A stretch of 64,000 bases of DNA from an uncultured Phascolarctobacterium sp. (GCF_900753045.1 NZ_CAADXO010000012.1:36588-100587), one strand, 5' to 3'. Counted from the first letter of the stretch, positions 5,716-53,251 are shown. Notes: generated from the sequence alone by a model not told the origin. Translations and numbers: made by a program.

Positions 5716-6381
5716 ATGGGAAGAAGAAAAGCACTCCCGCCGGACTTTGATGGCAACTATACCGAAGATATGTTGTCTGAACGCCAACGTAACATTTTGA
5801 AATTCGTCCGTACTTTTATTAATCATAAGGGTTATCCGCCTGCTGTACGCGAAATCGGTGCAGCAGTAGGTTTATCCTCCAGTGCTAGCGTGCATAATCA
5901 TCTGAAGAAGCTGCAGGAGTATGGTTTCATTCAGCGTGATGCTGCCAAACCGCGTGCTCTGGAGCTGATGAGCGAGAGCGATGCCTGGAGAAACAAACTC
6001 CTTGTTCCGGTACCGCTGGTTGGCAAGGTTACTGCAGGTGTTCCTATTCTTGCTGTCGAGAACATTGAAGAGACCTATCCTATTCCTCGCGACCTGATTG
6101 GCTGCGACGATGATGTTTTCATGCTTTCCGTATGCGGTGACAGCATGATTAACGCAGGTATTCTGGATCATGACTACATTATTGCACGTAAGCAGAATTT
6201 TGCTAATAACGGCGATATTGTCGTTGCCCTGATTGACGGCGAGGAAACCACCGTTAAGCGTTACTTCCGCGAGCTGCGCAGTGTGCGCCTGCAGCCGGAA
6301 AACGATAAGTACGAGCCGATTGTTGGTTCTGACAACATTAAGGTGCTTGGCAAGGTTATTTCTGTATTCCGCATGCTCTAA
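5716..6381 (+). CDS. lexA: LexA repressor (SOS regulator, S24 autopeptidase)
   Basis: N-terminal winged HTH (RQRNILKFVRTF...GYPPAVREIGAAVGLSSSASVHNHLKKLQEYGFIQR). C-terminal S24 peptidase with the cleavage-site region VPLVGKVTAGVP, catalytic Ser in CGDSM and Lys in TVKRY. Start chosen at the ATG with GGAGGG 7 nt upstream; the ORF table starts 18 nt earlier. Confidence 0.85.
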   Translation: MGRRKALPPDFDGNYTEDMLSERQRNILKFVRTFINHKGYPPAVREIGAAVGLSSSASVHNHLKKLQEYGFIQRDAAKPRALELMSESDAWRNKLLVPVPLVGKVTAGVPILAVENIEETYPIPRDLIGCDDDVFMLSVCGDSMINAGILDHDYIIARKQNFANNGDIVVALIDGEETTVKRYFRELRSVRLQPENDKYEPIVGSDNIKVLGKVISVFRML

Positions 6382-12296: not shown

Positions 12297-12590
12297 CATT
12301 TCTACATACTTTTCGCAATACATATATCATCCACTCCTCTACTTCTTACTGATTATAGCTTACAGTATTTCCGGCATTTCTTCATGTAAAAAAAGGTGCG
12401 AAGACTGCCTTGATACCGCTTGCCAAAGTAAATGCGGGCACATTACTGAAAAACGTGCCGGCAATCAGTGTTGTTTTGCATTATGCCTTAGCATAATCTT
12501 ATTATAAAAAATAGGATAGCCAGAGATTGGCTATCCTAAAAAATTTTTTGAGAAATTTTTAGATATTTTTTGCGAAAATGAATTTTGCGC

Positions 12591-31175: not shown

Positions 31176-32330
31176 CTAAGCTTCTATCACAGCAACGTGT
31201 TTTTCCGAACATTCCTGCAAGATGTGCCCATAGATAGCATAGGTGACCGCTATGCTAGTGTGTCCTAAGCGTTCTGTTATAAGAGCTATAGGTACATGCT
31301 TGTAAATCATGTTGGATGCATTTGTGTGTCTCAATCCGTGGAACGTGAAAGGTCTAGTGATACCTGCGCCTTTCCTAGTGAAATCCCACGCATGGATAAG
31401 CAACCGCTCCACATAGAAGCTATCTCTTTTCCTATTATAGAAGATATAAGGTGACTTGTCAAAGCTAAGTGGCTTTAAAGACATAAGAAGCTGTGTTGTC
31501 TTCTCAGATATTTTGATGGTGCGATACCCAGCTTGTGTCTTAGGGTATGTAACTATTGTCTTGTTATTCTTATCCTTAGCTAAGGTTCTTTTTACAGATA
31601 TTGTATTAGCAGCATCATCGAGACAATCCCACGTAAGAGCTAACAGCTCCCCTTCTCTCATGCCTGTTTCATAAGCAAGACAATACAGAGCATAGAACTG
31701 ATACTTCAGCATAGGTTTCTCCTTGTGCTCCCATAGGGGCAGGAGGAACGCTTTGATTCGCTCGTGCTCCTCTTGCGATAAGACAACCACTTCATGTTTA
31801 GGTTTGTCACTCTTTGGTGTCTTCTGCATCGAAGTTACAGGTGACTTTCCAATGAGGTCTTGTTCTACACACCATTTGAAAAAGAGCCTTAAGCGACCTA
31901 TATAATTAAGATAGGTATTAGTTGAATAGTTCTTTTGATGCCACTCTAAGAGCATGGTATCTATAGTATGAGTGGTGACCTTAGATAACGCTAAGCCATT
32001 AGCTGTTTTGTCTAGGAGCTTAAGTACACGCCTTGTGGTGATTATTACAGACCCTGACATCCGCTGAGCTTCTAGGTGCTTAAGGTACACCTCACCCTGA
32101 TACTTTATTGTGTCTTCTTCTGCTTTTACTTGCAGACCTTTATCCTCTTTGTCTCTCTGAAGCTTCTTCAGCTTCTCCACAGCTTCCTTTTTTGTGTCTG
32201 CTGTGGCTGATAGCCAACGCCTTTTGCCATCCACAGGGTCTAATTCTACCCTAACACGTACTTTACCGCTAGGGAGGACTATTATAGACCCCTCTCCTTT
32301 AGGTCTTCTACGAGTGGTTTTAGATGGCAT
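31176..32330 (-). CDS. int: Tyrosine-type site-specific recombinase (phage integrase)
   Basis: C-terminal catalytic region FHGLRHTNAS ... LGHTSIAVTYAIYGHI carrying the R..H-x-x-R...Y signature. Start at MPSKTTRRR, 7 nt after AGGAGG. Confidence 0.9.
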   Translation of the reverse strand: MPSKTTRRRPKGEGSIIVLPSGKVRVRVELDPVDGKRRWLSATADTKKEAVEKLKKLQRDKEDKGLQVKAEEDTIKYQGEVYLKHLEAQRMSGSVIITTRRVLKLLDKTANGLALSKVTTHTIDTMLLEWHQKNYSTNTYLNYIGRLRLFFKWCVEQDLIGKSPVTSMQKTPKSDKPKHEVVVLSQEEHERIKAFLLPLWEHKEKPMLKYQFYALYCLAYETGMREGELLALTWDCLDDAANTISVKRTLAKDKNNKTIVTYPKTQAGYRTIKISEKTTQLLMSLKPLSFDKSPYIFYNRKRDSFYVERLLIHAWDFTRKGAGITRPFTFHGLRHTNASNMIYKHVPIALITERLGHTSIAVTYAIYGHILQECSEKHVAVIEA

Positions 32331-32389
32331 TATAAAACCTCCTGACTTCAAAAATTGCCAAAAATTGTGAAAGGGTATATATAATATAG

Positions 32390-33002: not shown

Positions 33003-33048
33003 TATTATACGCCTCCTCTCTTGTTGTTATCCTCATTATACCATGCGT

Positions 33049-33190
33049 GGCTACATTTTGCTACATTTTTTTGAAAAAAGTACTTGCATTTTGTAGCTAC
33101 ATGTGGTATTATATAACCATATAGAGATACAAAAATACAGATACTCTCTATATATTTTTTAAACATCATGTAGCTACATAGAGCTACAAA
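33049..33190. promoter_or_regulatory. Operator cluster
   Basis: GCTACATTTT twice in tandem, TGTAGCTACA, ATGTAGCTACAT and GAGCTACA, all between the divergent RHH gene and the first early gene. Confidence 0.45.
33085..33112 (+). promoter_or_regulatory. Rightward early promoter with an overlapping palindromic operator
   Basis: TTGCAT, then 16 nt, then TATTAT. The spacer contains the perfect palindrome TGTAGCTACA (33092-33101). Confidence 0.45.
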
Positions 33191-33424: not shown

Positions 33425-33517
33425 TAAACTTTTATCGGTACTACCGCCCCGGCGGTGGTACTCATTAAGAGCTTATTAAACTCTTAAAACTTAATAACCT
33501 AGGAGGGACAAAAACAG

Positions 33518-33991: not shown

Positions 33992-34082
33992 TAGCTTTTT
34001 TCGGACATACTAGACACTTGTCTAGTGTGTCTCATAAAGAGTTATTAAGGATAACTCTAAAAATATTAGGAGGTAAATTAAT

Positions 34083-34638: not shown

Positions 34639-34718
34639 AGCTTTTCAGGCATCCGCTCCGGCGGGTGTCTCATAAAGCTTTTACAGCTTTAAATAATAAC
34701 CTAGGAGGGAACAAAAAT

Positions 34719-35108: not shown

Positions 35109-35191
35109 CTTTAAGAGCTTTTCAGGCATCCGCTCCGGCGGGTGTCTCATAAAGCTTTTACAGCTTTAAAACATTATAGGAGGTACAAAAA

Positions 35192-35780: not shown

Positions 35781-35867
35781 GAGTTTTTAGGGCATGTAGG
35801 GCAACCGCCCTGCGTGCCTTATAAAGCTTTTAAAGCTTTAATATTACTAATCTAGGAGGTGTTACAC

Positions 35868-36107: not shown

Positions 36108-36322
36108 TGGGAGAGCACAAAAGACAAGGCAAGACCTTTTTCGTGACTGTAGACGCTCATATGCAGGTTGCAATACATCGTGCCCCTAGTGGACATTTTT
36201 CGTATATTATCTACTACGATGGTAGACAAACAACCGGGGCATTACGTATCACACAAGCACATGCAGCCGATAAGCTGGGATTGACACTGCCGGAGCTGCT
36301 GGAAAAATTCAAACTTGACTAG
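36107..36322 (+). CDS. Hypothetical protein (71 aa)
   Basis: MGEHKRQGKTFFVTVDAHMQ..., ATG coupled to the previous stop, RBS AGGAGGTG. Confidence 0.4.
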   Translation: MGEHKRQGKTFFVTVDAHMQVAIHRAPSGHFSYIIYYDGRQTTGALRITQAHAADKLGLTLPELLEKFKLD

Positions 36323-36591
36323 CTAAAAACTGAACAGAGGTACGGACAAAACTGTACCTCTAATTTTTTGCACCCTTTTTTCGCCCCTCAACCGAACGGA
36401 ACGAAATGATGTTCGTAGTTACTGAAGCTCACCTGAGCGGAACGAAACGTGTTGTCTTGTGCGACGCACGGAGCGAAACGAAACGAGGATGCAGGGGCAA
36501 CCCAAGCTGCCAAGGCAAGCAATGGTACTTTTGGGCAAGCAAGGCAAGCCAAAGGGTACACGTATTAGAAGAAAGCAAGCAAGTTTTCTAC

Positions 36592-36616
36592 AATGGGTCA
36601 CCTTTAATGAAGAAAG
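36592..36616 (+). promoter_or_regulatory. Candidate phage-RNAP promoter, copy 1, upstream of the RNAP gene
   Basis: AATGGGTCACCTTTAATGAAGAAAG. The core GGGTCACCTTTAG resembles the -12 to -1 region of SP6/T7-type promoters (SP6: GGTGACACTATAG). Confidence 0.45.
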
Positions 36617-36643
36617 ACCCATCAACACAAGGAGGTATTTACA

Positions 36644-39229
36644 ATGACACAAGTAGATGTGGACATGATGGAAGAAGAATTGAAGTTGGAATCTGCCTAC
36701 AGATTAGCAGGGTATGAAACGATGCAACGCAACCTGCAACAAGCCAAAGAAAATAGCATGGTAGATACAGCTACCCCTATTGGACAAGCATTTTTCACCC
36801 ACAAGCTGTTGGCTGTAAAAGACACAATCGAACAATGGCTTATCAAGAACATGAAACCCAAAGCAGGTGTAAAGCCTAACTATACTTTTCTTTTGGAAGA
36901 CCTGAAAAGAGAGTTCCGCACAGAGGATGATGAGGTTGATATTGACACCATATCTTCTATCTGTGCTAGTGTTACCTTATCCGCTATCTTAAATGCCTTA
37001 ACTCTCAAAGGTGAAAAAGGCAACTATCTGAATGATGTAGCTGCTAAAGCTGGGCGTGGCTTGTACTATGAGTATCAGATGAAAGCCTTTGAAAATTGGC
37101 TGAAGACACAAGACACCAATAAAGGAGCATTGGCAGGTATAGAAAAAAGAGTTGGTCTCCATTATCGTTATGTCTATCTGAAACAGGCTATGTCCAAATG
37201 TGGCTACGCTGCCCCAAATTGGGATAGTCAGAACACAGCTATCCGTACATTAGGTACTGCTTTTGTTGTCTTAGCACAGGAGGAGACAAACTACTTCACC
37301 TTAGAAGCTACTATGGATACCCCTTCTGAGCTTATCCCCACAGAGCAATTTACAGAAGCGTGGCAACGCAATGAAGACAATATGCTGGAACATGCAAGAC
37401 AAAGCTGCCCTATGATTATCCCTCCTAAAGATTGGACAAGCTATGAGGATGGTGGTTATTATGGTGACCTTGCATCCTTCACCTCTCTCCTGCGTTTAAA
37501 GTACCTTGATACTATTTTTGGTAAACAGTACAAACGTAGACTTATGCAACTTGACATTCCACAGGTTTATAAGGCTGTCAATAGTATTCAGGCAACACCA
37601 TGGGTAATCAATAAGCAGGTATTAGAGGTGCTGAAGCAATGTAGACAAAACAACTATATCCCCTGCTCTAGTGAGAATGGAAATGTGCTGTCTTTAGAAA
37701 ATGATGATGCTCCCAAACAACCAGCATCCACAGCCACGGATGAGGAAATAAAGGCATATAAGAAAAAGGCTGTGGAATACTACAAGGGATTGAAACGTCG
37801 TATGTCTTTGCAGAATCGTGCAAATACTATTATAAATACAGCAGAACGCTTCAGCTCCTATGCACACATCTACTTTCCGTGGAACATGGACTTCAGAGGT
37901 CGCATTTACCCTATCCCCTCTTTCAGTCCTCAAAGTGATGATTTAAACAAAGGCTTATTACTTTTTGCAGACACACCACCTTGCCAACATGAAGAAGACA
38001 TCAAGTGGCTTGCCATTACCGGAGCGAACCTTGCAGGTGTAGATAAAGTAAGCTACGATGATAGAATTGCATGGGTATATCAGCATGAAGAAGATATATT
38101 AGCATCTGCTGCTGACCCTATGGGACATCAATGGTGGCTGCAACAGGATGAGCCTGTACAGATGCTGGCGTTCTGCTTTGAGTGGGCAAAGGCTAAGCAA
38201 TGGATAGTTGCACATGGCTCTATTGTTGGTTGGGTAACAGGTCTCCCCTATGCTCAGGATGGAACGTGCTCCGGTCTGCAACATTTCAGTGCTATTCTCA
38301 GAGACCCTATTGGTGGTAAAGCTGTAAACCTTGTACCCCAAGACAAACCAAATGACATCTATGCACAAGTAGCGGAAAAAGTCAATGAGTTTTTGAAAAA
38401 AGATGCAGTAAATGGCACTCTTGATGAATGGGATGAAAAGAAGCTGAGAATGAAGTTTGGCACAAAAACCCTTGCGCAAATATGGTTAAACTTTGGGGTA
38501 AACCGCAAGGTTACCAAAAGACCAACCATGACACTCGCCTATGGTGCTAAAAAGGCAGGATATACTGCTCAAATTATGGAAGACACCATAAAGAAGGCAA
38601 TGAGAGAGCAGGGAGAAGCGTGTGTCTTCACTCAATCTAATAATTTTCAGGCTGCACAGTATTTGGCTGGTCAGATATGGGATGCTGTGGGTCAAACAGT
38701 TGTAAAGGCTGTTGAGGGTATGGATTGGTTACATAAATGTGCTAAACTTGTCACAAAAAATTCAAATGTTGTATCTTGGGTTACCCCTCTAGGCTTACTG
38801 TTACAACAGAGCTATGTCAAGTTTGATATTGAAATTGTTAAGCTCAGATGTGCTGGAAAACGCTATCGTATCTATACTCCACATCAGAATGGACAGATAG
38901 ACAAAAGCAGACAAACAAATGGCATTGCCCCTAACTTCATTCATAGCATGGATGCATGTCACTTGCAACTTACAGTCTGCAAATGCAAAGATGCAGGAAT
39001 TAATCACTTTACGATGATTCACGATAGCTATGGTTGTCCTATGTCTCAGGTGGATATTATGTATAAGTTAGTAAGAGAAGCCTTTATAGAGCTTTATACA
39101 GAGCATGATGTTCTTGCTGAATTTAAAGAATCTCTACAATATTTAGTAACTAAAGAACTCCCTGCTCCACCTAAAAAGGGAGAATTAGACCTGAACATTA
39201 TAAGAGACAGTAAGTATATATTTTGCTAA
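36644..39229 (+). CDS. Single-subunit DNA-directed RNA polymerase (T7 gene 1 family)
   Basis: Motif A region DGTCSGLQHFSAILRD against T7 DGSCSGIQHFSAMLRD. Motif C MIHDSYG. LAFCFEWAKAK against T7 LAFCFEY. 861 aa against 883 aa in T7. Confidence 0.95.
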   Translation: MTQVDVDMMEEELKLESAYRLAGYETMQRNLQQAKENSMVDTATPIGQAFFTHKLLAVKDTIEQWLIKNMKPKAGVKPNYTFLLEDLKREFRTEDDEVDIDTISSICASVTLSAILNALTLKGEKGNYLNDVAAKAGRGLYYEYQMKAFENWLKTQDTNKGALAGIEKRVGLHYRYVYLKQAMSKCGYAAPNWDSQNTAIRTLGTAFVVLAQEETNYFTLEATMDTPSELIPTEQFTEAWQRNEDNMLEHARQSCPMIIPPKDWTSYEDGGYYGDLASFTSLLRLKYLDTIFGKQYKRRLMQLDIPQVYKAVNSIQATPWVINKQVLEVLKQCRQNNYIPCSSENGNVLSLENDDAPKQPASTATDEEIKAYKKKAVEYYKGLKRRMSLQNRANTIINTAERFSSYAHIYFPWNMDFRGRIYPIPSFSPQSDDLNKGLLLFADTPPCQHEEDIKWLAITGANLAGVDKVSYDDRIAWVYQHEEDILASAADPMGHQWWLQQDEPVQMLAFCFEWAKAKQWIVAHGSIVGWVTGLPYAQDGTCSGLQHFSAILRDPIGGKAVNLVPQDKPNDIYAQVAEKVNEFLKKDAVNGTLDEWDEKKLRMKFGTKTLAQIWLNFGVNRKVTKRPTMTLAYGAKKAGYTAQIMEDTIKKAMREQGEACVFTQSNNFQAAQYLAGQIWDAVGQTVVKAVEGMDWLHKCAKLVTKNSNVVSWVTPLGLLLQQSYVKFDIEIVKLRCAGKRYRIYTPHQNGQIDKSRQTNGIAPNFIHSMDACHLQLTVCKCKDAGINHFTMIHDSYGCPMSQVDIMYKLVREAFIELYTEHDVLAEFKESLQYLVTKELPAPPKKGELDLNIIRDSKYIFC

Positions 39230-39252
39230 TGGGTCACCTTTAGTGAAGAAAG
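39227..39252 (+). promoter_or_regulatory. Candidate phage-RNAP promoter, copy 2
   Basis: TAATGGGTCACCTTTAGTGAAGAAAG, immediately after the RNAP stop. Confidence 0.45.
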
Positions 39253-39412
39253 AAGACAATAGATAACTATAGATTCCTATAGACTCTATAGAGACCTTTA
39301 AGTACCTAAGGTTATGTTATTAATAACTAATAATAAACTACCTAAGGTAACTAAAGGTCTCTATTGTCTTTAAAGTCCCTTTAGTTTACTTTAGTTACCT
39401 AAAGAAAATGCT

Positions 39413-39439
39413 AATGGGTCACCTTTAGTGAAGAAAAGA
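39413..39439 (+). promoter_or_regulatory. Candidate phage-RNAP promoter, copy 3
   Basis: TAATGGGTCACCTTTAGTGAAGAAAAG, 186 bp downstream of copy 2. The segment between them is AT-rich and full of internal repeats. Confidence 0.45.
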
Positions 39440-39530
39440 CAACATGCTTTTAAACACTAAATCGCTGCCGTTTCTATTTTTCCTTTCAGTGTGTTGTCTT
39501 TTCCTTAATTCATTTAAGGAGGTATTGTCT

Positions 39531-44000: not shown

Positions 44001-45347
44001 ATGCTCTACTTTGATATTGAAACCGATGGTCTGCTGGACAATGTTACTAAAGGGCATTGTCTAGTAATCATCGACGAACAGAACAACATCTCAGCTTACA
44101 GACCTGATGATTTTAAAAAAGGAGCTATGCGATTAATCGCTGCTCTGAGGGATGGAGAAAGCATCTGCGGGCATAACATCATCAATTATGACTGTGCTGT
44201 CTTAGCTAAGCTCTATCCCGAGTTTCGCATAAAGCGAGAATGGAGACCACAAGTTTTAGATACCCTTGTGCTGTCACGTCTTATCTGTGGCAACATAGAA
44301 GATACTGACCACGCTAGGGTACGTAATGGTACACTCCCTGCTAAATTGATTGGTAGACAATCACTAAAGGCATGGGGTTATCGCCTTGGGGAACTTAAAG
44401 GTACGTATGGTGAGCAAGAGGATGCATGGGATTCTTTCAGTGAGGAAATGCTCTCCTATTGTGTGCAGGATGTCACTGTTACCAAGAAGCTCTATACATA
44501 CCTCATGAAGATTGGTGCACCTGCTAAGGCTATAGAGCTGGAGCATCAAGCACAATGGCTGATGTCTAAGCAGGAGCGGAATGGTTTTGTCTTTGACTTA
44601 GAAAAGGCAGAAAAGCTGAGGGAAACCTTAGAATTGCGCTATGCTGTGTTGTCTTCTCAGCTTGTGGCTATTGTGCCACAGATACCTGATAAGGTCTTTA
44701 TACCAAAAAGAGATAACAAACGCTTAGGGTATAAAGCAGGTGTACCTATTCAAAGATATAAGGACTTCAATCCTAGTAGCAGACAGCAGGTAGCATGGGT
44801 GCTGGAGCATCAATTCAACTACTTGCCGGAAAACGAAGACTGCTATGAGGATGAACGCCTGAAGATTGATGGTGATACCTTTAAGTTTATTAAGGGTGAT
44901 GAAAATGCCCCACAAGAACTAAGAGACTTAGCTGCTGTCTTTGAGGAGTATCTTATGGTGGCTAAGCGGTTAGGTCAGCTTGCCACAGGTAACCAAGCAT
45001 GGCTGAAGCATGTTAAGGCTGATGGTAGAATCCATGGTAGCGTAAATCCTTGTGGTACAGTAACAGGACGTGCTACCCATGCGAACCCTAATGTTGCCCA
45101 AGTCCCCCACGTTGGTAGTCCTTATGGTCAAGAGTGCAGGGAATTGTTTAGAGCACCTGAGGGTTGGTTTGAGGTAGGTGTAGATGCCTGTGGCTTGGAG
45201 CTTAGGTGTCTTGCACACTATCTTTATCCCTATGATAAAGGTGCTTATGCCCATGTTATCTTGAATGGTGATATTCATACATTGAATCAACAGGCTGCTG
45301 GGTTACCTACTAGAAACGCAGCTAAGACATTTATATATGCGTTCCTT
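44001..45347 (+). CDS. DNA polymerase (T7 gp5 family), exon 1: 3'-5' exonuclease and N-terminal polymerase part
   Basis: MLYFDIETDGLL (ExoI), HNIINYDCAVL (ExoII), and ...GRIHGSVNPCGTVTGRATH...LELRCLAHY...TFIYAFL against T7 TFIYGFL. The reading frame stops 5 codons after the T7-equivalent position, where the intron begins. Confidence 0.85.
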
Positions 45348-46002
45348 AAAATGCACTATTGAGGAACTAAAACCCATTGAAAACGGTGAAACTCTCACTG
45401 AGACAATACCGTGCTAAGATTTTGGAGGAAATGTGAATAGATGAACAAAACTAATCATTATAGAGGTGCAGAAAATCCACAGTATAAATATGGTGCTGGT
45501 GTCTTTGTTAGAAAAAGGACAGAGATAAAAGAACGTATTGGTAAATGTGAACGCTGTGGTAAAGATTTGACTAATGCAGGACATTATGAGTGGTGTGTGC
45601 ATCATAAAAACCATAACCATTATGATAACACTGAGGGTAATTATGAGTTATTATGCAAGAAGTGCCATCAATTAGAGCATCAATGTGTAAAGAATATCCC
45701 TAAATCATATGAAAAAGTATGTGAACTCTGTGGAGATACCTTTACTGCAAAAGCACATAATCAAAAATATTGCCCTGGCTGTCTCAAAGTCCAACGAAAT
45801 ATGCGCCGATATAGAAGTTTTGAGCAAATAAAAGCATATATCCTTCAAAATAAAGTGTAACGACTATTCCGTAAGGAAGTACAGCACAAGCTAATGGTGC
45901 TGGAAGTGGTGGGCATTGATGATATAGTCTATTCTCATAGGTGACTATGAGCAGTTTCTTAGAAAACGCTTGGGGACTTGCGAACCCTAGGGAATAATTA
46001 AG
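45348..46002 (+). mobile_element. Group I self-splicing intron in the DNA polymerase gene
   Basis: 5' exon ends ...TTCCTT. An internal guide candidate GAGGA 13 nt downstream can form P1 with a U-G pair at the splice site. The intron ends in G (..TAAG). Joining 45347 to 46003 restores ...TFIYAFL|YGAGDKAIG..., matching T7 ...TFIYGFLYGAGDEKIG. Confidence 0.7.
45441..45860 (+). CDS. Intron-encoded HNH homing endonuclease
   Basis: Zn-finger-like CERCGK and an HNH core HHKNHNHYDNTEGNYELLCKKCHQLEH. Own RBS GGAGGA. Confidence 0.8.
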   Translation: MNKTNHYRGAENPQYKYGAGVFVRKRTEIKERIGKCERCGKDLTNAGHYEWCVHHKNHNHYDNTEGNYELLCKKCHQLEHQCVKNIPKSYEKVCELCGDTFTAKAHNQKYCPGCLKVQRNMRRYRSFEQIKAYILQNKV

Positions 46003-52109: not shown

Positions 52110-52140
52110 CCCTCCCTAGCTGGAGGGTTATTTTTTTTTA
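52110..52140 (+). terminator. Hairpin plus T-run immediately upstream of the capsid gene
   Basis: CCCTCC-CTAGCT-GGAGGG followed by TTATTTTTTTTTA. Confidence 0.4.
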
Positions 52141-53198: not shown

Positions 53199-53230
53199 AG
53201 GGGATGGCGTATGCTGTCCCCTATTTTTTC
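53199..53230 (+). terminator. Late terminator after the capsid gene (T7 T-phi analogue)
   Basis: AGGGGATGGCGTATGCTGTCCCCT followed by ATTTTTTCT. Confidence 0.5.
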
Positions 53231-53251
53231 TAAAAATGAAAGGAGATGTCA

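What the first reader, a model, noticed from the sequence alone, without database searches (positions are those of the whole stretch)
36592..39440. Three copies of a 25-bp T7/SP6-like promoter sequence bracketing the RNAP gene, and a probable primary replication origin
TAATGGGTCACCTTTAGTGAAGAAAG occurs at 36592 (just upstream of the RNAP RBS), 39227 and 39413. Its GGGTCACCTTTAG core resembles the -12 to -1 element of SP6/T7 promoters. In T7 the first phage promoters (1.1A/1.1B) sit right after gene 1 and flank the AT-rich primary origin. Here copies 2 and 3 flank a 160-bp AT-rich segment full of short repeats (CTATAGA..., TACCTAAGGT...). The upstream copy would make RNAP expression self-amplifying. 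No further clear copies were seen in the late region, so later promoters must be more diverged if they exist.
Basis: partly seen in the sequence, partly recalled or inferred. Interest (0 to 1): 0.6.

Follow-up and report, generated by a model that had tools for sequence, protein, structure and literature searches.

The report
Prophage RNA polymerase's three own promoters
Three copies of a 26-bp sequence around the RNA polymerase gene of a T7-like prophage in a gut Phascolarctobacterium are very probably that polymerase's own promoters, because in related phages the sequence changes together with the polymerase at all three sites; whether the AT-rich hairpin between two of them is the replication origin remains open.

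Summary
The three copies are real: 36591-36616, 39227-39252 and 39412-39437, all on the + strand, with none expected by chance. They are the only such sites in the window and in full-length relatives.

The window holds a temperate T7-like prophage of an uncultured Phascolarctobacterium. Its RNA polymerase (RNAP) is about 35% identical to T7's.

In about 45 related contigs the layout is kept: one copy before the RNAP ribosome-binding site, one overlapping the RNAP stop codon, and one after a roughly 160-bp element. The 6-8 bp core of the motif differs between at least 10 RNAP types. It is the same at all sites of a genome, with two partial exceptions.

The diverged block is exactly the RNAP gene plus copies 1 and 2. 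Its flanks stay 92-100% identical. Copy 3 is a separate island that still matches. This is strong comparative evidence for cognate promoters.

The upstream half resembles the experimentally defined Syn5 promoter.

A phage promoter before the RNAP gene (LUZ100) and tandem promoters after it (T7) both have precedents.

The segment between copies 2 and 3 is 28% GC and forms a conserved 120-nt hairpin. It could be an origin, an RNase III site or an early terminator; this is undecided.

Verdict: a new member of a known kind, with an interesting pattern of RNAP/promoter cassette swapping.

The parts
36336..36361 (+). Intrinsic-terminator-like hairpin (10-bp stem followed by AATTTTTT) that closes the early operon, about 280 nt before the RNAP gene.
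   Evidence: terminator scan; fold. The region is 94-100% identical in relatives.
36362..36590 (+). Conserved RNAP leader containing GAACGAAAC and GGCAAGCAAGG repeats. It probably includes decayed older promoter units.
   Evidence: No Rfam match.
36549..36575 (+). Relic promoter-like unit of a foreign type, CCAAAGGGTACACGTATTAGAAGAAAG. It resembles type C (AATGGGTACACGTAAACGAAGAAAG).
   Evidence: The pattern occurs once per contig, and only in type A and B phages.
36591..36616 (+). P1: an off-consensus copy of the phage promoter (CAATGGGTCACCTTTAATGAAGAAAG), directly upstream of the RNAP ribosome-binding site. ATGGGTC pairs with GACCCAT at 36617-36623.
36644..39229 (+). Single-subunit RNA polymerase gene (861 aa) with intact catalytic motifs.
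   Evidence: Pfam RNA_pol E=7.7e-110. DGTCSGLQH and IHDSYG align to T7 D537 and D812. 35% identical to T7, 27% to SP6 and 27% to Syn5.
39227..39252 (+). P2: consensus promoter copy. Its first three bases are the RNAP stop codon.
39252..39371 (+). Conserved long imperfect palindrome or hairpin, 28% GC. The outer stem is AAGACAATAGA/TCTATTGTCTT, the inner stem is AGACCTTTA/TAAAGGTCT, and the apex is AT-rich.
   Evidence: I1, I14; -50.3 kcal/mol, z=-6.3.
39267..39292 (+). Three CTATAGA repeats spaced 10 and 9 bp apart. Relatives carry 2-4 copies.
   Evidence: four copies in L028; L101.
39412..39437 (+). P3: consensus promoter copy ahead of the DNA-metabolism and structural gene block.
39435..39501 (+). 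5' leader stem of the P3 transcript (AAGACAACAUGCUU ... CAGUGUGUUGUCUU), parallel to the AAGACAA.../...TTGTCTT stem that follows P2.

Best explanation
The three repeats are the complete promoter set of the prophage's own T7-type single-subunit RNA polymerase (RNAP).

Proposed mechanism; every step below is inferred, none is shown:
- After induction, host RNA polymerase transcribes the early operon.
- Some transcripts read through the terminator at 36336-36361 into the RNAP gene.
- The new RNAP binds P1, a slightly off-consensus copy, and amplifies its own synthesis.
- It also fires from P2, which overlaps its stop codon, and from P3, 185 bp further on.
- P2 and P3 would then transcribe the whole co-oriented DNA-metabolism, structural and lysis block. 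Hairpin terminators after the scaffold and capsid genes would lower the dose of the later genes.

The promoter has three modules:
- an upstream half, TAATGGGTCAC, conserved across the phage group. It is probably read by the equally conserved AT-rich loop and specificity loop of the RNAP.
- a 6-8 bp core, CTTTAGT here, that is specific to each RNAP type.
- a purine-rich start region, GAAGAAAG. Transcription most likely starts at its first G, give or take 2 nt.

The AT-rich hairpin between P2 and P3 acts either on RNA (processing, or 3' end formation for the RNAP message) or on DNA (a transcription-activated origin), or both, as in the corresponding T7 interval.
For: Context:
- The setting is a T7-type genome with integrase, RNAP, T7-type SSB, endonuclease I, primase-helicase, family A DNA polymerase, exonuclease, portal and capsid.
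- The RNAP has intact catalytic motifs.

Covariation between motif and RNAP:
- Across about 45 related contigs the three-site layout is kept.
- The core differs by RNAP type: A CTTTAGT, B AGAATAT(T), C (AC)GTAAAC, D AAACAT, E TACTGTC, H TCTATC, J TCCCACC. Types F and I have other motifs.
- Within each genome P1, P2 and P3 carry the same core.

The variable block is the RNAP gene itself:
- Against types B, C and D, nucleotide identity drops only between about 36510 and 39250. This is the relic, P1, the RNAP gene and P2.
- The flanks stay 92-100% identical, and the replication genes are 93-94% identical. RNAP is therefore the only type-specific protein in the block.

P3 tracks the RNAP type independently:
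- P3 lies beyond the conserved roughly 160-bp element, which is 92-98% identical between A and B and between C and D.
- The gene after P3 is shuffled among RNAP types; for example, MLKSEAFCGQ... occurs with types A, B, C and D.
- P3 nevertheless always matches the RNAP type.

The upstream half tracks the specificity loop:
- In L099, the residues aligned to T7 R746 and R756 change (I to K, R to N) and P1/P2 change GGGTCAC to GGTCTAC.
- In type F, the residue aligned to T7 N748 is Q rather than K and the upstream half is GATTGACACAC.

Resemblance to a proven promoter:
- The experimentally defined Syn5 promoter is ATTGGGCACCCGTAA followed by G at +1 (PMC3950665).
- It aligns with types C and D, placing CAC at -9..-7 and a G at +1.

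Other points:
- All sites have a pyrimidine followed by GA at the proposed start.
- No sigma-70-like promoter is called at any of the three sites.
- The motif is found in IMG/VR only in this phage group, at most three times per contig.

Precedents:
- T7 has phi1.1A and phi1.1B directly after gene 1.
- LUZ100 has a mapped phage promoter directly before its RNAP gene, a proposed feedback loop, and tandem promoters (PMC10134795).
- Phages with 2-4 phage promoters per genome are known: the Syn5-, phiKMV- and KP34-like groups (PMC11880802).
Against: - There is no transcript or biochemical evidence, and the start site is ambiguous by 1-3 nt. In types A, B and E the CAC-to-G spacing is 7-8 nt, against 6 in Syn5 and in types C and D.
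- The motif lacks the CACTATA core of T7-group promoters.
- There are two partial exceptions to concordance. L100's P1 has a different core from its P2 and P3. L099's P3 keeps GGGTCAC while its P1 and P2 have GGTCTAC.
- The contigs are related, so the number of independent switches is smaller than the number of contigs. For the deeper split (A/B against C/D) the stretch between the hairpin and P3 also differs, so P3 could have travelled with the cassette.
- The RNAP segment that reads the variable core could not be mapped. E and J have different cores but identical 'intercalating hairpin' regions and near-identical C-terminal domains. A and L099 share a core but have dissimilar N-terminal domains.
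- A single transcription unit of about 30 kb driven from P2/P3 is assumed, not shown.
Confidence: 0.8

Rival explanations
1. The P2-hairpin-P3 interval is mainly the primary replication origin. Transcription by the phage RNAP from P2 or P3 opens the AT-rich palindrome, and the T7-type primase-helicase and DNA polymerase start there. The CTATAGA repeats would act as iterons or as loading or primase sites.
For: - The interval has 27.8% GC and an apex of about 22% GC.
- It has repeats spaced about one helical turn apart, with copy number varying from 2 to 4.
- TATAGA-type repeats persist in distant relatives whose surrounding sequence has changed: L028 and L101. L100 has roughly 47-bp direct repeats there.
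- A full T7-type replisome is encoded.
- In T7 the primary origins are phi1.1A and phi1.1B, and every T7 origin needs a phage promoter (PMC8373140). This phage has only three such promoters.
- The whole hairpin is inverted in one subgroup without loss. This fits an orientation-independent DNA element.
Against: - There is no replication evidence.
- Cumulative GC skew shows no inflection at 39.3 kb. This is uninformative where skew follows transcription.
- The feature conserved down to relatives with 49-55% RNAP identity is a stable hairpin directly after P2. That fits an RNA role equally well.
- In T7 the AT-rich origin segment follows both promoters rather than lying between them (own knowledge).
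- The P. faecium relative has only one promoter there.
Confidence: 0.35
2. The hairpin between P2 and P3 works at the RNA level. It would be an RNase III site or 3' stabiliser for the RNAP message, like T7 R1.1. Alternatively it would be an early terminator that stops host-RNAP read-through. In either case P3 exists to restart transcription beyond it.
For: - The predicted hairpin is 120 nt, at -50.3 kcal/mol with z=-6.3.
- RNAalifold predicts 49 pairs. Seven have compensatory changes and several are A-U to G-U changes.
- Unrelated sequences at the same position in L100, L101 and L083 also fold well, with z=-4.2, -4.0 and -2.9.
- The T7 interval between phi1.1A and phi1.1B also folds into hairpins. 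It contains the RNase III site R1.1 (own knowledge).
- Five early intergenic units in this phage also form strong hairpins. This suggests that processing sites are used generally in this phage.
Against: - All the compensatory changes come from one sequence, L030.
- A perfect DNA palindrome gives the same signal.
- No clear U-tract follows the stem in the window, so it is a poor intrinsic terminator.
- Conservation of the CTATAGA sequence itself in distant relatives points to sequence-specific recognition rather than shape alone.
Confidence: 0.4
3. The repeats are not promoters. They would be recombination scars or boundary sequences of a mobile RNAP cassette, homogenised by gene conversion. 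Alternatively they would be operators for a type-specific DNA-binding protein other than the RNAP.
For: - P1 and P2 abut the swapped RNAP gene, so they would co-transfer without any function.
- Relic units upstream show serial cassette replacement.
- P2 and P3 are direct repeats 185 bp apart with extended flanking identity (GCTAATGGG...GAAGAAA..AGACAA). This could drive gene conversion (D4).
Against: - The only protein encoded in the diverged block is the RNAP.
- The type-specific core sits inside the repeat, between conserved halves. This is the opposite of what a recombination boundary would need.
- P3 stays matched despite homology-rich flanks and demonstrated recombination immediately downstream.
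- All copies are co-oriented with the genes and sit in front of gene blocks.
- The upstream half tracks changes in the specificity loop and resembles the proven Syn5 promoter.
- Relic units decay, for example TAAT to CAAA, once they no longer match the resident RNAP.
Confidence: 0.07
4. The sites are host sigma-70-type promoters, or operators of the prophage repressor.
For: Copy 1 contains TTTAAT and copies 2 and 3 contain TTTAGT, which are weakly -10-like. The sites lie in intergenic positions.
Against: - The sigma-70 scan calls no promoter at any of the three sites.
- There is no usable -35 element. The -10-like hexamer falls in the core, which is replaced by unrelated sequence in other types (GTAAAC, TACTGTC, TCCCACC).
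- The likely repressor operators are TGTAGCTACA palindromes beside the early promoter at about 33045-33190. These do not occur at P1, P2 or P3.
Confidence: 0.03

Closest known systems
T7 promoters phi1.1A and phi1.1B with the primary origin and RNase III site R1.1
   Same: - Two phage-RNAP promoters stand in tandem directly after the RNAP gene. In T7 they are at 5848 and 5923, after the gene 1 end at 5822.
- The interval between them folds into hairpins.
- AT-rich DNA lies nearby, and a T7-type replisome is encoded.
   Different: - The spacing is 185 bp here against 75 bp in T7.
- The AT-rich element lies between the promoters rather than after them.
- The promoter sequence lacks the CACTATA core.
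- T7 has about 17 phage promoters and none before gene 1. This phage has three, one of them before the RNAP gene.
- The RNAPs are only 35% identical.
Pseudomonas phage LUZ100 (temperate T7-like): phi1 upstream of the RNAP gene and tandem phi2/phi3
   Same: - It is a temperate T7-like phage with an integrase.
- A phage-specific promoter lies directly upstream of the RNAP gene, behind a terminator.
- A read-through plus positive-feedback model has been proposed for it.
- It has tandem phage promoters early in the middle region (PMC10134795).
   Different: - LUZ100 has eight phage promoters, spread over the middle and late regions. Their start sites were mapped by ONT-cappable-seq.
- A MarR-type regulator is implicated there. 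Here the candidate repressor is a small RHH protein, and no operators lie at P1.
- No RNAP/promoter type switching has been described for LUZ100.
Cyanophage Syn5 RNAP promoter (ATTGGGCACCCGTAA, +1 G)
   Same: - The upstream half is shared: (A/T)TGGG(G/T)CAC. CAC sits 6 nt before a G start in types C and D. Type C matches 12 of the 15 positions.
- Both have very few promoters per genome.
- K-x-R is present in the specificity loop of both RNAPs.
   Different: - The RNAPs are only 27% identical, so the resemblance may be convergent.
- One Syn5 promoter lies inside its RNAP gene.
- The Syn5 promoter is 15 bp and has no conserved GAAGAAAG start region.
SP6 promoter (ATTTAGGTGACACTATAGAAGAG; recalled from my own knowledge)
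   Same: A GGTGAC/GGTCAC element and an initially transcribed GAAGA sequence.
   Different: There is no CACTATA. The register is shifted by about 1 nt. The RNAPs are 27% identical. SP6 has about 12 promoters (PMC11880802).

Membership tests
Promoters of phage single-subunit (T7-type) RNA polymerases | A cognate single-subunit RNAP gene with intact catalytic residues in the same genome | tested here: met
   Pfam RNA_pol E=7.7e-110 plus RPOL_N. The motifs aligned to T7 D537 and D812 are conserved.
Promoters of phage single-subunit (T7-type) RNA polymerases | A roughly 20-25 bp sequence repeated almost exactly, co-oriented with the genes, in non-coding positions ahead of gene blocks | tested here: met
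   Three copies on the + strand, with none expected by chance. Their positions are before the RNAP ribosome-binding site, at the RNAP stop codon, and before the middle-gene block.
Promoters of phage single-subunit (T7-type) RNA polymerases | Promoter sequence co-varies with the RNAP among related phages (cognate pairs) | tested here: met
   At least 10 RNAP types, each with its own core at all its sites. The diverged block is confined to the RNAP gene. Two partial exceptions: L100 P1 and L099 P3.
Promoters of phage single-subunit (T7-type) RNA polymerases | Specific initiation by the phage RNAP at a defined +1 | not testable with these tools
   Needs in vitro transcription or start-site mapping. 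Only inference is available: Y|GA is invariant at all sites, and the register matches Syn5.
T7-like promoter category in the strict sense (PhageProm PSSM; about 13 per genome; region III CACTA) | Conserved CACTA(TA) core at -7..-1 and many copies across the middle and late regions | tested here: not met
   Only CAC is shared, and the following 6-8 bp are the most variable part. There are three copies per genome and none in the late region. PMC11880802 describes the category.
Syn5-like promoter category | Similarity to ATTGGGCACCCGTAA with +1 G, and few copies per genome | tested here: inconclusive
   The upstream half and the register match for types C and D. Type A differs in 6 of the last 8 positions, and the RNAP is only 27% identical to Syn5's.
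Autoregulated RNAP gene (phage promoter upstream of its own polymerase, as LUZ100 phi1) | A cognate-type promoter directly upstream of the RNAP gene, downstream of a terminator that limits host read-through | tested here: met
   P1 at 36591-36616 and the terminator at 36336-36361. P1 carries the cognate core in 9 of the 10 types examined.
Autoregulated RNAP gene (phage promoter upstream of its own polymerase, as LUZ100 phi1) | RNAP-dependent transcripts starting at that promoter | not testable with these tools
   No transcript data are available.
T7-type primary replication origin | Phage-RNAP promoter(s) next to an AT-rich segment just after the RNAP gene, in a genome with a T7-type replisome | tested here: met
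   P2 and P3 flank a 27.8% GC segment. SSB, primase-helicase, DNA polymerase A and exonuclease are encoded. T7 is the reference. Difference: the AT-rich part lies between the promoters, not after them.
T7-type primary replication origin | Replication initiates there | not testable with these tools
   Needs marker-frequency analysis, 2D gels or in vitro replication. GC skew is uninformative.
RNase III processing site of T7 early/middle mRNAs (R1.1-like) | A long imperfect hairpin in the transcript between genes | tested here: met
   z=-6.3; 49 pairs, 7 compensatory; hairpins at the same place in distant relatives.
RNase III processing site of T7 early/middle mRNAs (R1.1-like) | Cleavage by host RNase III | not testable with these tools
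   Needs a cleavage assay or 5'/3' end mapping.

The most novel reading that the evidence does not exclude
The RNAP gene and its three promoters form an exchangeable 'transcription-specificity cassette'. This gut phage population would maintain many mutually orthogonal types (at least 10 were seen) on one nearly identical backbone. The selective pressure would be to avoid, or to exploit, cross-activation between co-resident or superinfecting relatives, which is analogous to immunity types in lambdoid phages.

On this reading, the stacked foreign-type promoter units upstream of the RNAP gene are not mere fossils. There is one such unit in the window and up to three, well preserved, in L099 and L030. 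They would act as sensors that switch on the resident RNAP gene when a heterotypic relative's polymerase appears.

Specificity would be encoded mainly in the -7..-1 part of the promoter. This differs from the -12..-8 rule established for T7, T3, SP6 and K11.
Probability: 0.2. Interest if true: 0.75.

Novelty: new member of a known kind. Interest (0 to 1): 0.5.

Why it matters
- **Transcription map.** It gives a testable map for an undescribed lineage of temperate T7-like phages of Phascolarctobacterium, a common human gut genus. The map has one feedback promoter and two tandem promoters that would drive about 30 kb of genes.
- **Orthogonal pairs.** The comparative data offer a natural panel of closely related RNAP/promoter pairs. 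These differ mainly in a 6-8 bp core next to the start site. This is useful for building orthogonal expression systems and for learning which RNAP residues read that part of the promoter.
- **Evolutionary record.** The relic promoters record serial replacement of the polymerase gene. They raise the question of whether transcription specificity acts as an incompatibility system among prophages.

Tried and rejected
- **Searches that added nothing.**
  - A genome-contig search with the RNAP found only an irrelevant archaeal fragment.
  - A DNA search of cultured phages found only short RNAP matches of 4% coverage. The best cultured RNAP is about 36% identical.
  - Rfam gave nothing at the leader or the three sites. 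Within the hairpin there was only a chance-level miRNA hit.
  - No tRNA was found at the prophage end.
- **Host promoters.** The sigma-70 reading was rejected.
- **Mapping the core-reading RNAP segment.** I considered that the hypervariable RNAP segment aligned to the T7 intercalating hairpin reads the variable core. I dropped this because types E and J have identical sequence there but different cores, while A and L099 share a core with dissimilar N-terminal domains.
- **The relic's origin.** I searched IMG/VR for a phage that uses the window's relic sequence as its active three-copy promoter. None was found.
- **The P1 hairpin.** It is predicted in types A-E but is not more stable than shuffled sequence (z -0.8 to +0.4, except type D at -2.2). 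Its role stays open.
- **Replication origin from skew.** GC skew gave no origin signal.
- **Literature.** The JBC 2013 Syn5 paper could not be read. No paper on T7-like prophages of Phascolarctobacterium was found.


Full report
**Observation**

The 26-mer occurs three times on the + strand. The copy at 39227-39252 is exact. The copy at 39412-39437 has one mismatch. The copy at 36591-36616 has two mismatches (CAATGGG... and ...TTTAATG...). Shuffled sequence gave none. Frame patterns that ignore the core, AATGGG-N9-14-GARRAA and GGGTCAC-N5-9-GAAGAA, hit only these three places in 64 kb.

Copy 1 (P1) ends 28 nt before the start of an 861-aa ORF. Copy 2 (P2) begins with that ORF's stop codon. Copy 3 (P3) lies 185 bp further on.

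The segment between P2 and P3 has 27.8% GC against 41.6% for the phage part. It carries three CTATAGA repeats.

**Context**

Positions 1-31000 are host DNA of about 50% GC. A prophage starts at about 31100. Its genes, with Pfam support, are:
- integrase at 31176-32351 on the minus strand;
- a small RHH protein and small early genes;
- the RNAP gene at 36644-39229;
- a DUF3310 protein, dUTPase, T7-type SSB, endonuclease I, primase-helicase and family A DNA polymerase;
- ThyX, exonuclease, portal, scaffold and a T7-type capsid protein;
- tail tube proteins and internal virion proteins.

The exact RNAP sequence is on record as WP_293690457.1 from an uncultured Phascolarctobacterium sp.. It keeps the T7 catalytic motifs. 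It is 35% identical to T7 RNAP, 27% to SP6 and 27% to Syn5. No cultured phage has an RNAP more than about 36% identical. I found no paper on such prophages.

**The decisive evidence is comparative**

IMG/VR and assembly look-ups gave about 45 contigs with RNAPs 55-99% identical to this one. The layout is kept in them: one motif before the RNAP ribosome-binding site, one at the stop codon, and one after a roughly 160-200-bp element. The middle of the motif differs by RNAP type:

| Type | Example | Motif |
|---|---|---|
| A | window | TAATGGGTCAC-CTTTAGT-GAAGAAAG |
| B | L007-L009 | ...CAC-AGAATATT-GAAGAAG |
| C | L011, L040 | ...GGGTACAC-GTAAAC-GAAGAAAG |
| D | L013-L025 | ...GGGGCAC-AAACAT-GAAGAAAAG |
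| E | L030 | ...CAC-TACTGTC-GAAGAAAG |
| H | L100 | ...CAC-TCTATC-GAAGAAAG |
| J | L102 | ...CAC-TCCCACC-GAAGAAAG |
| F | L028 | GATTGACACAC... |
| I | L101 | ATTGGGGACATATTGA... |

A search with each type's own motif, allowing up to 5 mismatches, was run over the paired early and late loci of the same contigs. It finds exactly three copies per genome and none in about 24 kb of late region. The exact type A motif occurs in IMG/VR only in this phage group.

**The type-specific block is the RNAP gene itself**

Against types B, C and D, nucleotide identity falls to 45-75% only between about 36510 and 39250. The leader at 36310-36510 is 92-100% identical. The inter-promoter element is 92-98% identical, and the replication genes are 93-94% identical. 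The only protein that changes together with the motif is therefore the RNAP.

P3 is a small type-specific island inside conserved sequence. The gene that follows it is shuffled among RNAP types: the MLKSEAFCGQ... variant occurs with types A, B, C and D, and the DUF3310-first variant occurs with A and D. P3 nevertheless always carries the core of the resident RNAP.

For the deep split between A/B and C/D, the stretch between the hairpin and P3 also differs, so P3 may have moved with the cassette. For A against B and for C against D, the element is nearly identical and all three cores still differ.

Two partial exceptions exist. L100's P1 has a different core from its P2 and P3. L099's P3 keeps GGGTCAC while its P1 and P2 read GGTCTAC.

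**How the promoter is probably read (inference)**

The upstream half, TAATGGGTCAC, is conserved across types A-E, H and J. So are the RNAP segments aligned to the T7 AT-rich recognition loop (KPKAGVKPN) and to the specificity loop (VKLRCAGKRFRIY).

Where the upstream half changes, the loop changes too:
- L099 has K and N at the positions aligned to T7 R746 and R756, and its promoter reads GGTCTAC.
- Type F has Q instead of K at the position aligned to T7 N748, and its promoter reads GATTGACACAC.

In a large covariation study, K at the N748-equivalent position goes with G at -11 (PMC11880802). That is what these promoters have in the preferred register.

The Syn5 promoter, defined in vitro as ATTGGGCACCCGTAA followed by G at +1 (PMC3950665), aligns with types C and D. 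CAC then sits at -9..-7 and a G at +1. All sites of all types have a pyrimidine followed by GA at that point. I therefore place the start at the first G of GAAGAAAG, give or take 2 nt. In types A, B and E the spacing is 1-2 nt longer.

The RNAP part that reads the variable core could not be mapped. My first idea, the segment aligned to the T7 intercalating hairpin, is contradicted by types E and J.

**Circuit (inference)**

A strong terminator-like hairpin at 36336-36361 closes the early operon. A conserved 230-nt leader follows it, and then P1.

P1 is consistently off-consensus: C instead of T at its 5' end in types A, C and D, and changes near the start. A weak cognate promoter before the RNAP gene gives positive feedback once read-through has produced some enzyme. 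The same design was mapped and proposed for the temperate T7-like phage LUZ100 (PMC10134795).

P2 and P3 would drive all downstream genes. Intrinsic-terminator-like hairpins follow the scaffold gene (about 52110-52140) and the capsid gene (about 53203-53235). The second is where T7 has T-phi.

Genomes with only 2-4 phage promoters are known for the Syn5-, phiKMV- and KP34-like groups (PMC11880802).

**The element between P2 and P3**

As RNA it folds into a 120-nt hairpin (39252-39371; -50.3 kcal/mol, z=-6.3). The hairpin is kept in relatives: 49 predicted pairs, seven of them with compensatory changes, all from L030.

In one type D subgroup the whole roughly 70-bp palindrome core is inverted. 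Unrelated sequences at the same position in L100, L101 and the P. faecium prophage L083 also fold significantly well. TATAGA-type repeats recur in L028 and L101.

T7 has two promoters in the same place, and hairpins lie between them. By my own knowledge these hairpins are the RNase III site R1.1, with the AT-rich primary origin just downstream. PMC8373140 states that the primary origins are phi1.1A and phi1.1B and that every T7 origin needs a phage promoter.

The element could therefore be an origin, a processing site or an early terminator. These roles are not exclusive, and the tools cannot separate them.

**Rivals**

- Host promoters or repressor operators are unlikely. No sigma-70 call was made at the sites, the -10-like hexamer lies in the variable core, and the likely operators (TGTAGCTACA) sit at the early promoter.
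- Neutral recombination scars are unlikely. The variable part lies inside the repeat, and P3 stays matched despite recombination around it.

**Comparison and novelty**

The kind is known: promoters of a phage single-subunit RNAP, an autoregulated RNAP gene (LUZ100), and tandem promoters after gene 1 (T7). The promoter consensus, the phage lineage and the host are new.

The pattern of many RNAP/promoter types on one backbone is the most interesting by-product. Type specificity appears to sit next to the start site, and relic promoters are stacked upstream. This pattern needs experiments.

Noticed in passing
window 36549-36575; L007-L009, L012, L040, L030, L099 upstream of RNAP: Promoter-like units of foreign type are stacked upstream of P1. 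The window has a type C-like unit with TAAT degraded to CAAA. Type B phages keep a type A unit. Type C phages keep a type B-like unit. L099 and L030 carry two or three well-preserved units. This looks like a stratigraphy of serial RNAP-cassette replacements, or possibly sensors for other phages' polymerases.
   Followed up: partly
window 36592-36623 and the same place in types B-E, J, I: This is a P1-specific inverted repeat. The promoter's AATGGG(TC) pairs with (GA)CCCATT 8-15 nt after the proposed start. It is absent at P2 and P3. In L101 both arms change together (ATTGGG / CCCAAT). The fold is not more stable than shuffled sequence. Its role is unknown; possibilities are an mRNA 5' structure or a head-on RNAP binding site for negative feedback.
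   Followed up: partly
window 45347-46001 (HNH ORF 45441-45860): The family A DNA polymerase gene is interrupted by a 655-bp insertion that encodes an HNH endonuclease. The insertion is precisely absent in L003, L008 and L016. There is a weak Rfam group I intron hit at 45775-45951 (E=0.0009, below the gathering score). It is probably a mobile group I intron, as in some T7-like phages.
   Followed up: partly
window 33437-33500, 34003-34060, 34647-34695, 35124-35172, 35790-35840: Five early intergenic units share one design: a GC-rich hairpin, then CTCATAAAG, then a second AT-rich hairpin, then the ribosome-binding site. Fold z-scores are -3.1 to -5.9. They resemble the RNase III sites between T7 early genes.
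   Followed up: partly
L014-L017, L025, L027, L037 versus window 39293-39363: The roughly 70-bp core of the inter-promoter palindrome (GAGACC...GGTCTC) is present in inverted orientation in one type D subgroup. This implies inversion by recombination between its arms.
   Followed up: partly
window 36362-36590: The RNAP leader is 92-100% conserved among RNAP types. It is rich in GAACGAAAC and GGCAAGCAAGG repeats and has no Rfam match. A sigma-70-like promoter (TTGACA-16-TG-AAAAAT, 36281-36308) sits just before the terminator at 36336-36361.
   Followed up: no
window 33045-33190: TGTAGCTACA palindromes and GCTACA repeats flank a sigma-70-like early promoter, between the divergent RHH/integrase genes and the early operon. 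These are the likely operators of the lysogeny switch.
   Followed up: no
window 52110-52140 and 53203-53235: Intrinsic-terminator-like hairpins with U-tracts lie right after the scaffold gene and the major capsid gene. The second is in the position of T7 T-phi.
   Followed up: no
L008 versus window 37910-38400: The type B RNAP gene is a mosaic. Its central (palm/fingers) part is 90-98% identical in nucleotides to type A, while its N-terminal and C-terminal parts are only 55-80% identical. This indicates recombination inside the RNAP gene.
   Followed up: partly
L083 (Phascolarctobacterium faecium LR215982.1) 5836-5888 and 12517-12543: In the prophage with 49%-identical RNAP, the motif after the RNAP stop codon (TTAATTGTTCCACATCCAAGAGAAAGG) has no copy before the RNAP gene. 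Two divergent copies lie instead in the integrase-early intergenic region. This is a different wiring of the same parts.
   Followed up: no
L100 5620-5790: In type H the element between P2 and P3 consists of two roughly 47-bp direct repeats (GATAGAATATAGTTAGCAGAAAGATAGCAGATAGATA...) plus a hairpin. It looks like an iteron array.
   Followed up: no
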